Shown here in pieces: positions 44,690 through 58,930 of a DNA stretch of 64,000 nt. The notes below the pieces were generated by a model. The model made no database searches and was not told the DNA's origin. It saw nothing but the letters and a program-made list of their open reading frames with translations. Made by a program: the position numbers and the translations under genes. The stretch is taken from contig OZ024741.1 in NCBI GenBank assembly GCA_964016885.1, forward strand, positions 124,310,001 through 124,374,000, read 5' to 3'. This stretch comes from Eledone cirrhosa (Eukaryota). Positions within the stretch are counted from its first letter, which is position 1. The number at the start of each line of letters is the position of its first letter.

Positions 44690-44997
44690 ATGGCATGTAT
44701 ATATAATGTCGTTTATTGAACTTTAAAGGTGTCGGTGGTTGTTGCCCCTGTCCCCTAAGAAACATAAGCACCGTCTGAGGTAATTTTCCTTGACCATGAT
44801 ATGAGTATATATATATATATATAAATATATATAAACAAAGAAAGTGTGGCAAGAAATCAGGTGGGCCATAGCGCACCAGAGTACTCAATACTTAGGGTAG
44901 TAGAGTGGGTAATAGGGAAAGAGTTAGGAACCCGACGGCTGAGCCCATGCCGTTTCGACAGCTAGATCCGAACTCGGATCTAGCTGTCGAAACGGCA
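44690..44997 (-). mobile_element. Fold-back repeat carrying the 3' half of an HHR
   Basis: Minus strand reads ctagctgtc-GAAAC-ggc..gcc-GTC-gggttcc. Perfect hairpin at 44948-44997. Body is shared with 45363-45640 and 58711-58930. Confidence 0.75.
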
Positions 44998-45061
44998 AAG
45001 TTTGTTTACCCTTATGTGGAAGTTATGTATTTCTATTGTCTCTTCCGTATATATATATAGA

Positions 45062-45246
45062 TGGATTGGCAGTATCGGTAGAGGTTCGGACGCCATGCTT
45101 TGCAGCAGAGAGTTACGGCCCTTTATGATCTAAGTTCAAATCCCGCTGAGGTTAACTTTGCCTTTCATCCTTACGGAGTCGATAAAATAAAGTACCAGTA
45201 ATGCACTGGGTAATTAGTGGTCTTGTGCCAAAAGTAGAAACAATTA
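45062..45246 (+). mobile_element. tRNA-derived SINE (dominant family), full length
   Basis: Match to the family consensus. Confidence 0.88.
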
Positions 45247-45362
45247 TATATATATTAAATCTACTTTGCTTGGAACCATTCGTTCTTACATTTTCATTGG
45301 GTGAATGGATATTCAACCGTAATCAAGTCGAGGTGCGTTTCTACAGCATTGTATATATATAT

Positions 45363-45640
45363 GGGAAAGTAGTCAGGACCCCGACGGCTGAGCTCCGGCC
45401 TTTTCGACAGCTAGATCCGACGTCGGATCTAGCTGTCGAAACGGCATGTGTCCGGGGTCCTGACTCTTTTCCTATTGCCCACTCTACTACCCTAAGTATC
45501 GAGTACTCTGGTGCGCTATGGTCCACCTGGTTTCTAACCACACTTTGTTTGTTTACATATATATATATATACATATACTCATATCATGGTCAAGGAAAAT
45601 TACCTCATGTTTCTAAATTACCTCATGTTTCTATGTTTCT
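45363..45640 (+). mobile_element. Fold-back repeat carrying the 3' half of an HHR (second copy)
   Basis: Hairpin 45363-45475 centred at 45421-45422, then the shared ctaccctaagtat(c/t)gagtactctggtgcg body. Confidence 0.75.
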
Positions 45641-46050
45641 AAATAACATTAAATGACAAGATGTTTATAGTTATCTCTCTAGAACAGATTTATATTGTAA
45701 CGTGCTACGTTGTAGGTTAGAATAACAATATTAATTGACTGCATAATATTTAGAAGTATGAACTAATGAATTTTTTATCTCTGAATTATATCTGCTGGGT
45801 ATTTCACCGGAAGTAATTATTAAATAGTTTTAAACTGAAAAGAGAAAATGAGTAAAAAGGAACACAACACTGGCTGCAGAATATCCGCAAGGCAATATTC
45901 TCATATAATGTTATCATGATATAAATTAAATAAAGTATTAATAAAAATGCGATAAACTGTCCAAAATTAGTTCGTGCTGAATATGATAGTTTTATATTCG
46001 TTCTTGTATACTTTGCGTCCCGATTTCAATCCTGCTCAGGTAGACCTTAT

Positions 46051-46108
46051 TATTTTTCACCCTCCAATAGATCACATATTAATGTGATCTATTGGAGGGT
46101 GAAAAATA
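46051..46108. repeat. Perfect 27-bp inverted repeat with 4-nt loop
   Basis: tatttttcaccctccaatagatcacat-atta-atgtgatctattggagggtgaaaaata. Confidence 0.95.
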
Positions 46109-56414: not shown

Positions 56415-56812
56415 CTGAGTTCAAATCCCGCCGAGGTTAATTTTGCCTTTCATCCTTACGGGGTCGATAAAATAAAGAACCAGTAATACACTGGGATAAT
56501 TGCTGGCCTGGTACCAAAAGTAGAAACAATTAATAAATTATACGAACATTTACTTTAAAATAACGTTATTGGTGCATATACCTTTTTTTTAATGGAATTG
56601 AAATATATAGAATAAATGTAGGAAAATGTTTCTACATTTGGCACAAGGCAAGCAATTACCCAGTGTATCACTGGTACTTTATTTTATCGACCCAGTAAGG
56701 ATGAAAGACAAAGTTAACCTCGGTGGGATTTGAACTCAGAATGGCAAGGGCCGTAACTCTATGCGTCAAAGGATGGCGTCCGACCCTCTACCGATACTGC
56801 CAATCCACCGCC
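56415..56812. mobile_element. Two convergent SINE copies (56415-56530 +, 56625-56812 -)
   Basis: Match to the dominant family. The first copy is flanked by repeated ttaataaattatacgaac, a candidate TSD. Confidence 0.85.
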
Positions 56813-56880
56813 TAATAAATGTAATAATATTTGTAAAATTATTATTTTCTATATGCCTACAAACTCACACACACACACAA

Positions 56881-57032
56881 ATATATATATATATATATAT
56901 ATATATATATATATATATATATATATATATATATATATATATATATATATATATATATATATATATATATATATATATATATATATATATATATATATAT
57001 ATATATATATATATATATATATATATATATAT
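56881..57032. repeat. (TA)n microsatellite, representative of many (1410-1458, 2806-2862, 4125-4185, 15625-15865, 23039-23180, 24812-24907, 30847-31160, 34491-34868, 36501-36552, 57912-58712, 61011-61122, 63970-64000)
   Basis: Direct dinucleotide runs; source of all the IYIYIY ORFs. Confidence 0.98.
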
Positions 57033-57911
57033 ACATTATCTGTAAGTCGTTTGGAAGCCTCGACAATGCAGATGTCTAAGTCTCCGGGTAACAAGATCCG
57101 GTGGTGGAGAGAGAGATGTAAGTGGGTGTACGTTGAGATGCATGGCGTGTAGAAGACTGTAGCGTGTAGAAGAATGTAGGAAAGAACGTAAAGGATAAAA
57201 ATAAAAATAATAACACGAGATAGAGTTACATTGTCCCTATATATTTCGGATTCACATCCATCAACTGGGGTTTTTTCCGGGGGGGGGGGGGGTTGTCTGT
57301 CGGAAAGGTGCGAAACGTGTCCACCGCTGTTCGTTGCTTTGAATATCTGAGGTATTCAGCAGAGCGCGCGTGCGCGTGAAATGCGGTCGGTCAGGCAGAG
57401 GTCGGCGGCCGAAATAGTTCTTTCAATTGTGGGAGTGGGGTGGCTCTAGCTATTAGTCGATAGTATTCTCTGCCTGCTTGGTGAATGTTACTGTGTGTGT
57501 GTGTGTGCGTGTGTTGCTGACTCGCTTGTGTGTGTGTATGTGCGTGTGTTGCTGCATCGTTTGTTTACTCAAACCAATAACCTCATTTCGCTTCTCTCCG
57601 ATTGCTTGTTTAATTGTGGCTCTAGGCGTTTGATCCAAAGTGCTTCCTTGATATGTAATGTGCCGACATTTCTTTCTGTCGCTAGAATTGTGACAATGGG
57701 CCTTCCGTCTTTGTTTCCGCATTTGGCTGTGTTTCCGGAAAACGAGGCCCTGGTGTTAGTGTGCTCCTTAATCCGGATGTGCATCGGCCGGATGATGCTA
57801 CCAGTATAGTATTGGTTGCACTTGTTACATTCTATCTTATACACGACGTATGTGCGTAGGCCACAGCTCGCGTAGCGCATCGGGCAGTCTCTGAGGGAGC
57901 ACGCGTCAGTT
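57033..57911 (-). mobile_element. 5'-truncated PLE: GIY-YIG fragment (57569-57900) plus 3' UTR with variant HHR (57235-57270)
   Basis: CSLRDCP..C..VVYKIECNKCNQYYTGS..RIKEH..IKEALWIKRLEPQLN. HHR-like ccc-CAGTTGA-t-gga(tgtgaa)tcc-GAAA-tata-TA-ggg. (TA)n on both sides. Confidence 0.85.
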
Positions 57912-58710
57912 GATATATAACTATATATATATATATATATATATATATATATATATATATATATATGAATATATATATATATACATATATATAACTATAT
58001 ATATATATATATACATATATATAACTATATATATATACATATAACTATATATATATAGTTATATATTACTACATATATATATATATAGTTATAATCTATA
58101 TATAACTATATATATATATATATATATATATATATAGATATATATATATAGATATAGATATATATAGATACAATCTATATATAACTATATAGTTATAATG
58201 TATATATAACTATATATATATATATATATATATATATATATATATATATATATATATATATATATAAATATATATATATATAGATTATAAATATATATAT
58301 AAATATATATATATATATAGAGAGAGAGAGAGAGAGAACGAGAGGAAGAGAGAGAGAGAGAGAGAGATTATATATATATAAATATAAGTATGTATGTATA
58401 CGTACATACATACATATATGTATACAGACGCACAGCAGTATGTATATATATACATACATGCACACATATATATATGCACGTATACATACATACATACATA
58501 CTTACTTTTAAGTAAGTGCCGTCCTAAGACTGAGAAATGAAATTTCGTTTCATTCTATTCTATATATAAATATATATATATATAGATAGATTATAACTAT
58601 ATATCTATATAGTTATAATCTATATATAACTCTATATATATATATATATATATATATATATATATATATATATATATATATAGTTATAATCTATATATAT
58701 ATATATATAT

Positions 58711-58930
58711 ATAGGAAAAAGTATGACCCCGACGGCAGAGCTCAAGCCGTTTCGACGGCTTTTTGGGGACTAAATAAGAACTAAAATTCTAATTTAGTCC
58801 AGAAATAGCCGTCGAAACGGCTTGAGCTCTGCCATCGGGGTCATACTTTTTCCTATTTCCCACTCGACTACCCTAAGTATTGAGTACTCTGGTGCGTTAT
58901 GGTCCATCTGTTTCCTTACTACAATTCCTT
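58711..58930 (+). mobile_element. Fold-back repeat carrying the 3' half of an HHR (third, more divergent copy)
   Basis: Hairpin 58711-58856 with near-perfect outer arms and an imperfect centre; shared downstream body. Confidence 0.75.

What the first reader, a model, noticed from the sequence alone, without database searches (positions are those of the whole stretch)
44690..58930. Three insertions fold back within hammerhead stem II, suggesting ribozyme-hairpin-primed inversion
Seen: three copies of one family (44690-44997, 45363-45640, 58711-58930) carry only the 3' half of a type I HHR (stem II strand-GAAAC-ggc..gcc-GTC-ggggtc). Where CTGATGA should lie there is instead the reverse complement of the downstream sequence, so each copy starts as a long hairpin centred on the presumptive stem II loop. 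The fold-back arms differ in length between copies. In the 58.7-kb copy the centre is imperfect, like a natural stem, while the outer arms are near perfect. Inference: nascent cDNA snaps back at stem II and self-primes second-strand synthesis. This would be a specific mechanism for the inverted 5' ends of PLE-type insertions and would delete the catalytic core.
Basis: partly seen in the sequence, partly recalled or inferred. Interest (0 to 1): 0.76.

Follow-up and report, generated by a model that had tools for sequence, protein, structure and literature searches.

The report
Head-to-head Penelope run-off cDNA pairs
These three hairpin-shaped sequences are short head-to-head fragments of a very abundant Penelope-like retrotransposon whose breakpoints pile up at one base inside its hammerhead ribozyme, likely because two DNA copies are made to the start of the element's RNA and then joined, rather than by folding back at the ribozyme's stem.

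Summary
The hairpins are real and carry only the 3' half of a type I hammerhead. They belong to a Hydra-clade Penelope-like element (PLE) with at least 11,111 tail matches in the genome. Intact parents exist, but their core is mostly the U3-A8 form TTGA(C/T/A)AA, not CTGANGA. The stem II snap-back junction has 0 matches, against about 2,100 for the natural strand, and no breakpoint among 90 sampled copies lies at the 5' base of stem II. Ends pile up 12-19 nt upstream of GAAAC, most sharply at the A of an initiator-like TTAGTY, often with an extra untemplated G. The two arms have fixed, different 3' ends and independent 5' ends; the tail-less arm is often the longer, by up to 2 kb. Best reading: two cDNAs, primed from both strands of a (TA)n target at two start sites, run off the capped RNA 5' end and are joined head to head. 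A second family in this genome shows the same pattern with stem II kept whole. Copies A and B are one insertion duplicated locally. No RNA evidence was available.

The parts
44776..44805 (-). Unique host flank shared by copies A and B (local inverted duplication)
   Evidence: 2 matches in the genome, both here
44806..44833 (.). (TA)n target run at the tail end of copy A
44834..44974 (-). Copy A tailed arm: from A-18 through hammerhead 3' half (G12 at 44956) to the tail end
44975..44996 (+). Copy A tail-less arm remnant (-14 to about +7), no TA run at its end
45361..45420 (-). Copy B tail-less arm, from the fixed short-arm 3' end to -15, abutting (TA)n
45423..45553 (+). Copy B tailed arm from -15 (G12 at 45438; 7-nt deletion in stem III) to the tail end
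45578..45607 (+). Unique host flank shared with copy A
58713..58780 (-). Copy C tail-less arm, +42 to about -27, four substitutions near the centre
58781..58934 (+). Copy C tailed arm from about -34 (keeps part of natural loop II; G12 at 58814; cleavage triplet decayed to ATC) to the tail end, then (TA)n
58794..58800 (+). Initiator-like TTAGTCC; A at 58796 is the family-wide breakpoint peak (-18), inferred transcription start
   Evidence: start-site role inferred

Best explanation
The copies are short head-to-head insertions of a Hydra-clade Penelope-like retrotransposon, and they likely form when two cDNAs, primed on the two strands of a (TA)n target, each run to the 5' end of the element's RNA and are then joined. 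Shown: parent with intact U3-A8 hammerhead at the end of an RT + GIY-YIG ORF; one arm ends at +42/+44 and the other at about +125, both in (TA)n; 5' ends of both arms, and of non-inverted copies, peak at A-18; arms end independently. Inferred: A-18 is the capped start of an internal promoter in hammerhead loop II; the RT start sites lie in the 5' UTR of every mRNA, so starting there gives 60-nt and ~143-nt run-off (strong-stop-like) cDNAs; their 3' ends are joined bluntly, by 1-6 nt overlap or with filler, and each serves as template for the other's second strand. The catalytic core is missing because it lies upstream of the start site. Longer copies (and copy C) would come from read-through RNA and be truncated at scattered points by the same route.
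For: Peak: exact-match counts in the major subfamily are 2,532 arms stopping at -17, 3,789 at -18 and 4,891 with T-19, of which 48 of the first 100 run on to -25 (hand count); about 44% of arms that reach A-18 stop there. 56 of 90 sampled tailed arms end in -23..-9, about 0.10 ends per nt against 0.006 and 0.015 on either side. Same position in two subfamilies with different loop II but shared TTAGTY, the only YYANWYY match common to 4 of 4 parents between -100 and +45. Extra G: where both arms stop at -18 with one base between, it is G:C in 7 elements plus 7-8 and A:T in 1 (hand counts of first 100 rows each); no intact parent has G at -19 (60 and 33 examined). Bases before A-18 not explained by the other arm: G 9 of 16, against 3 of 17 at -17, Fisher p = 0.03. 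Extra 5' G marks capped full-length L1 insertions (PMC11702581). Two cDNAs: tail-less arm reaches further in 30 of 59, tailed in 20, equal in 9; in long pairs the ends differ by up to 2 kb either way, e.g. -2076/-144 and -796/-2908. In vitro a PLE cuts and extends both strands and starts RT at two sites that bound the tail (PMC11167929). Penelope has an internal Inr/DPE promoter (PMC2377424). Second family: 8 short palindromes keep stem II whole in at least one arm and centre within 26 nt of GAAAC, with an extra G before A-25 in 2 (one ambiguous). ORF start codon lies at about +212.
Against: No RNA data, so the start site is not observed. The G excess is modest (16 and 17 cases; G versus C alone p = 0.40), and an RT that adds C at any template end would mimic a cap. 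YYANWYY is a loose motif, one variant of the second family misses it by one base, and no clear DPE was found (RGWYV consensus recalled; 4 of 5 at best). The peak overlaps a weak sub-hairpin in loop II (-5 to -7.5 kcal/mol). The short-arm end at +42 coincides with the end of an extended stem I in the folded intact ribozyme, which an RNA starting at -18 could not form. The two arms of a copy agree in subfamily letters (0.65 mismatches against 2.07 shuffled, 71 pairs), as fold-back also predicts. Later deletion at palindrome centres could blur the ends. Samples come from the first 50-130 Mb of contig C1 and from exact-match patterns, which favour young copies.
Confidence: 0.62

Rival explanations
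1. Two cDNAs are joined head to head, but both stop near -18 because RT stalls at loop II structure, at a bound protein, or at an RNA cut there, on read-through RNA that holds the whole ribozyme.
For: Sub-hairpin 3' strand spans -21..-15 in the major subfamily; +42 matches the base of extended stem I; unprocessed RNA is the main substrate in vitro (PMC11167929).
Against: The sub-hairpin is weaker than stem II, which RT has just passed (-5 against -12 to -19 kcal/mol); it sits elsewhere in the other subfamily while the peak does not move; single-base sharpness and the extra G:C pair; second family peaks at the start of stem I instead.
Confidence: 0.18
2. One cDNA runs to the RNA 5' end, folds back on itself with little or no homology and copies itself; later deletion at the palindrome centre makes the arms unequal. 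This is the general self-priming idea of Arkhipova et al. 2013.
For: Arms agree by subfamily; the commonest junction (-18/-12) would be a hairpin with a 6-nt loop; self-priming proposed for PLE palindromic junctions (PMC3846280).
Against: In 17 of 21 such junctions it is the tail-less arm that reaches -18, and a tail-less cDNA cannot template the tail; needs a separate reason for a fixed stop at +42 (111 of 134 tail-less arms run straight into TA); needs kilobase one-sided deletions in long copies.
Confidence: 0.14
3. One reading: cDNA snaps back at natural stem II and self-primes.
For: Stem II is real, 9-11 bp, with three compensatory pairs between subfamilies; breakpoints lie within a few bases of its 3' strand.
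Against: Predicted junction 0 matches, 0 of 100; 0 of 90 ends at the 5' base of stem II; natural loop not kept; second family keeps stem II whole.
Confidence: 0.03
4. A palindromic MITE-like family that spreads as a unit from a few palindromic masters.
For: Some centres recur many times; TA flanks.
Against: Continuous with an RT + GIY-YIG ORF and intact ribozyme; asymmetric tail; dozens of different centres; long copies have the same two 3' ends.
Confidence: 0.03

Closest known systems
Hydra-clade Penelope-like elements (Craig et al. 2021, PMC8557442)
   Same: C-terminal GIY-YIG, DKT, CxCX5C linker, no CCHH, CxxC and CxH, hammerhead, (TA)n targets, about 3 kb, inverted 5'-truncated copy with a one-sided tail
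   Different: RWR for RWK; tail about 80 nt rather than 30-40; most copies are 150-250 bp palindromes with a single-base breakpoint peak
Poseidon PAc in vitro (Frangieh et al. 2024, PMC11167929)
   Same: Two RT start sites bounding the tail, AT-rich targets, both strands cut and extended, hammerhead just upstream, cleavage not needed
   Different: Other clade; ORF there starts at stem II, here about 212 nt past GAAAC; the parts read do not explain inverted junctions
PLE hammerheads with U3-A8 (Cervera and de la Pena 2014, PMC4209133)
   Same: Type I, U3-A8 covariation, G10.1-C11.1, long helix II, palindromic loop 3, pairs on opposite strands 100-700 bp apart
   Different: Here helix III is a stable 5 bp, loop II about 30 nt with a sub-hairpin, and most copies keep only the 3' half
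Adineta vaga Penelope palindromic junctions (Arkhipova et al. 2013, PMC3846280)
   Same: Head-to-head inverted pLTRs, palindromes at the junction, Inr-like motif in the pLTR
   Different: Read there as self-priming on an antisense template; the arm asymmetry here favours two primed cDNAs on sense RNA
L1 twin priming and capped full-length insertions (PMC11702581)
   Same: Both target ends prime; extra 5' G; end joining with microhomology
   Different: Twin priming copies adjacent, non-overlapping parts of one RNA; here both arms copy the same stretch

Membership tests
Hydra-clade PLE | Single ORF with RT and C-terminal GIY-YIG | tested here: met
   ORF pieces upstream of intact ribozymes carry YRDD, FLD and VIY..YIG; Atlas look-alikes RVT_1/HTH_animal 0.93 and GIY-YIG 0.95 (23% of members). 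Pfam scan of 3 fragments gave 0 families; no unbroken ORF seen
Hydra-clade PLE | DKT in place of DKG; RWK motif | tested here: met
   SDKTG in L209 and L211; RWR (one conservative change) in L211 and L215
Hydra-clade PLE | CxCX5C linker, no CCHH, CxxC and CxH around E and N | tested here: met
   CNCPDRSTC, one C between VIY and YIG/YIA, CSLC and CKH in L209 and L206, read by eye
Hydra-clade PLE | Insertion into (TA)n; pLTR tandem; one-sided tail | tested here: met
   101 of 125 tailed and 111 of 134 tail-less arms end in TA; tandem unit about 3.1 kb in L209
Hydra-clade PLE | RT phylogeny inside the clade | not tested
   No reference Hydra proteins were held; no tree built
Type I hammerhead (U3-A8) | Core, GAAA, NUH site, stems I-III with covariation | tested here: met
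   Intact parents: U3-A8 in 55 of 71 and 30 of 31; three compensatory stem II pairs between subfamilies (rows were picked by stem II motifs, so within-family pairing is biased). 15 of 71 have C3-A8. Rfam did not flag the three half copies
Type I hammerhead (U3-A8) | Self-cleavage | not testable with these tools
   Needs an assay; the window copies lack the 5' core
Stem II snap-back inversion | Natural loop II kept at the centre; breakpoints at the 5' base of stem II | tested here: not met
MITE | Symmetric terminal inverted repeats, no retroelement parent | tested here: not met
   Asymmetric 80-nt tail and RT parent
Non-LTR retrozyme | Tandem units each with a whole hammerhead | tested here: not met
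   Copies are head to head with half a ribozyme; definition from 10.64898/2026.07.22.740005
Internal Pol II promoter (Inr) | Capped transcripts starting at the A of YYANWYY | tested here: inconclusive
   Motif and extra-G signature present; no RNA observed

The most novel reading that the evidence does not exclude
PLEs integrate by a symmetric double-priming route: a dimeric RT-endonuclease primes both target strands at the two tail-bounding sites, and the two cDNAs template each other's second strand. Starting at the tail copy in the 5' UTR yields integrated pairs of strong-stop cDNAs whose centre records the capped start site to the base. The inverted pLTR, the one-sided tail and second-strand synthesis then have one cause, and thousands of MITE-like palindromes in animal genomes are a fossil 5' RACE library of PLE promoters, here one that starts inside its own ribozyme and so makes mRNA that cannot self-cleave at its 5' end.
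Probability: 0.45. Interest if true: 0.78.

Novelty: new variant of a known kind. Interest (0 to 1): 0.6.

Why it matters
How PLE inverted ends, tails and second strands arise is called open in the papers read (PMC8557442, PMC11167929). This family gives thousands of junctions that separate self-priming from double priming and point to one base as the RNA start, so the question can be tested by 5' RACE and with the existing in vitro system. It also suggests that some short palindromic repeats in animal genomes are PLE run-off products rather than DNA transposons.

Tried and rejected
CTGANGA-based parent search: 16 hits, none an intact hammerhead; the parent was found by walking upstream. Rfam at E<=1: no hammerhead at the three copies; two HH9 hits belong to another family. 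Pfam on 3 ORF fragments: 0 families; PDB sequence search: nothing meaningful; BLASTP against a second PLE in L213: no significant match. Sequencing runs: no RNA holder listed; nothing was laid. Earlier scan findings: none for this genome. Two automated end-mapping methods mis-call some copies: over-extends some short arms to -25 and stops at internal deletions; one search stops early at mutations (L119 and L145 are intact, L123 reaches -48); by eye 6 of 90 are intact. A fixed-processivity ruler was rejected because the 60-nt and 143-nt arms stop at the same base. A parent variant with G at -19 was not seen; a rare C variant (1 of 60) explains a few C rows. CArG-like CCATAT(A)AGG at about -80 was seen but also belongs to extended stem I; not followed. 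Literature searches listed no paper tying PLE inversion centres to the transcription start or to two joined cDNAs; the library lacks most subscription journals, older PLE reviews were not seen, and no supplements were opened (those of PMC8557442, PMC11167929 and PMC4209133 may bear on novelty).
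Full report
Numbering: G of GAAAC (G12 of the hammerhead) = 0; the cleavage site follows +22. 'Tailed' arm = runs to about +125; 'tail-less' arm = ends at +42 or +44.

1. Observation. The three copies are homologous and fold as long hairpins, z = -11 to -22. Each has the 3' strand of stem II, GAAAC, a 5-bp stem III, the cleavage triplet and GGGGT, and no 5' core. 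Copies A and B share a 30-nt flank beyond the TA run that occurs only at these two places in the 3.0-Gb genome, so the window holds two insertion events, not three. The window is G000:C2:124310001-124374000. The genome looks like a cephalopod's; this is recalled from repeat content and size and was not tested.

2. The family. A 35-nt tail motif has 11,111 exact matches. I fetched 90 loci covering the first 92 of the 100 listed places and read them. Most read (TA)n, tail-less arm inverted, variable centre, tailed arm, (TA)n. Across loci L083-L312, 111 of 134 tail-less arms and 101 of 125 tailed arms with a scorable end run into TA repeats.

3. The parent. Walking upstream found it: ACCCC, core TTGA(C/A/T)AA, G10.1, a small internal loop, a 9-11 bp stem II, a ~30-nt loop II with a sub-hairpin, then the half seen in the window. 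U3-A8 holds in 55 of 71 and 30 of 31 intact copies of the two subfamily groups; 15 of 71 have C3-A8; stem II shows three compensatory pairs between subfamilies. U3-A8 is described for PLE hammerheads (PMC4209133, parts 1-2 of 4 read). Upstream lie broken ORF pieces with RT and GIY-YIG motifs (Atlas; Pfam blank). DKT, RWR, CxCX5C, no CCHH, CxxC/CxH and TA targets match the Hydra clade (PMC8557442, section 11 read; other passages). L209 shows a tandem unit of about 3.1 kb; the ORF start lies about 212 nt past GAAAC.

4. Test of snap-back at stem II. It predicts GTTTCGAC joined to the natural 5' strand and loop. That junction has 0 matches. A pattern that accepts both forms has 2,111 matches, and none of the first 100 is the snap-back form. 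Tested for the major subfamily only. No tailed arm among 90 ends at -50 to -57. In copy C the left arm follows the reverse complement of the right arm with four substitutions, not the natural strand.

5. Where the ends are. 56 of 90 tailed arms end in -23..-9, about 0.10 per nt against 0.006 downstream and 0.015 upstream; 45 of 59 tail-less arms end in the same span (automated, with known mis-calls: 6 of 90 are intact by eye). Non-inverted copies end there too. Genome counts in the major subfamily: 2,532 stop at -17, 3,789 at -18 (3-6 of the first 100 are run-through variants), 4,891 have T-19, and 48 of the first 100 of these continue to -25 (hand count). About 44% of arms that reach A-18 stop on it, and few are lost between -25 and -57 (about 2,350 against 2,111; rough, as the patterns differ). 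The other subfamily, with a different loop II, peaks at the same base. Both read TTAGTY there, the only YYANWYY match shared by 4 of 4 parents between -100 and +45 (consensus recalled). D. virilis Penelope has an internal Inr/DPE promoter (PMC2377424, passages).

6. Extra G. Where both arms stop at -18 with one base between them, that pair is G:C in 7 elements and 7-8, and A:T in 1, by hand from the first 100 rows of each. Parents have T at -19, never G (60 and 33 examined). With context fetched for 61 arms ending at -18 (60 of the 100 listed places), bases not explained by the other arm were G 9, C 6, A 1; for 35 arms ending at -17, T 9, C 5, G 3; Fisher p = 0.03, G against C alone p = 0.40. 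Unfiltered first-100 counts were G 47, C 49, A 4 and G 17, C 30, T 53, mostly templated by the other arm. An extra 5' G marks capped full-length L1 insertions (PMC11702581, passages). This is suggestive, not proof: the RT's own tailing preference is unknown.

7. One cDNA or two. The tail-less arm reaches further 5' in 30 of 59 short copies, the tailed in 20, equal in 9. In the commonest junction (-18/-12) the tail-less arm is the longer in 17 of 21. Among 25 long loci chosen for nearby intact ribozymes, head-to-head pairs had the tail-less arm longer in 7 (L178, L204, L208, L210, L211, L212, L216) and the tailed arm longer in 5 (L202, L203, L205, L206, L218), by up to 2 kb; the rest were equal, tandem, interrupted, repeats of the same place or single. 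A fold-back copy cannot hold what its template lacks, and a tail-less cDNA cannot template the tail. Against this, the arms of a copy agree in subfamily letters (0.65 against 2.07 mismatches, 71 pairs), so both come from the same RNA or source locus, as fold-back also predicts. In vitro a PLE cuts and extends both strands and starts at two sites bounding the tail (PMC11167929, parts 1-2 of 4 read). Self-priming was proposed earlier for such junctions (PMC3846280, passages).

8. Independent family. Mining the fetched loci gave 28 arms of a second hammerhead family with the same tailed/tail-less design. Its 8 short palindromes keep stem II whole in at least one arm and centre within 26 nt upstream of GAAAC, around an A at the start of stem I (CCAGATT fits YYANWYY, CCAGCTT misses by one), about 60 nt from the tail-less end as in the first family; 2 have a G before that A, one of them ambiguous. 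Its ORF was not found. So the centre is not set by stem II.

9. Mechanism. Shown: parent, two fixed 3' ends, peak at A-18, independent arms, absence of the snap-back product. Inferred: capped start at A-18; priming on both strands of a TA target; run-off of 60-nt and ~143-nt cDNAs; end joining; mutual second-strand synthesis. Copy A fits the peak (-18/-14), B is slightly eroded (-15/-15), and C (-34/-27) would come from read-through RNA. Points against: no RNA data; the peak overlaps a weak sub-hairpin; +42 matches the base of extended stem I in the whole ribozyme. Confidence 0.62; stalling 0.18; general fold-back with later deletion 0.14; stem II snap-back 0.03; MITE 0.03.

10. Novelty. The family type, inverted pLTR, tail and U3-A8 core are known. 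Eight searches listed no paper linking inversion centres to the start site or to two joined cDNAs, within a library that lacks most subscription journals; 10.64898/2026.07.22.740005 was read in part 1 of 5. Verdict: new variant of a known kind, interest 0.6.

Noticed in passing
window 24959-28728 (+): [quoted passage not shown]
   Followed up: no
window 31221-34496: Head-to-head inverted pair of another Hydra-like PLE (30-34% protein identity to this family), between TA runs.
   Followed up: partly
window 30427-30850 (-) and 36950-37382 (+): Two arms of the second hammerhead family with intact CTGATGA cores face away from each other about 7 kb apart and enclose the 31-34 kb element.
   Followed up: partly
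window 29567-29638 (-) and 30010-30081 (+): Third hammerhead family with canonical cores (Rfam HH9, 38.9 bits, below gathering) inside a 203-nt perfect inverted repeat structure.
   Followed up: no
window 41-1368 (-): Fragment of another Hydra-like PLE ORF, 37% identical to this family.
   Followed up: no
window 2802-4186 and 57569-57994: Inverted repeat with 465-nt arms between TA runs around a GIY-YIG fragment (3334-3867); another GIY-YIG fragment at 57.6-58.0 kb.
   Followed up: no
window 59604-60694 (+): Mariner-like transposase pieces (family name recalled from motifs).
   Followed up: no
window 11063-12025: Inverted repeat with 216-nt arms and an AT-rich spacer, no hammerhead noticed.
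   Followed up: no
L181, L184, L188, L202, L206: A subfamily has core CTGAGAA, a C3-A8 mismatch (15 of 71 intact copies), predicted to weaken cleavage, yet it spread.
   Followed up: partly
L085, L079, L131, L143, L153: Copies often sit next to other copies in the same TA run, as if TA flanks were re-targeted.
   Followed up: no
L130, L131: The two arms carry different subfamily letters, possible insertions from two different RNAs.
   Followed up: partly
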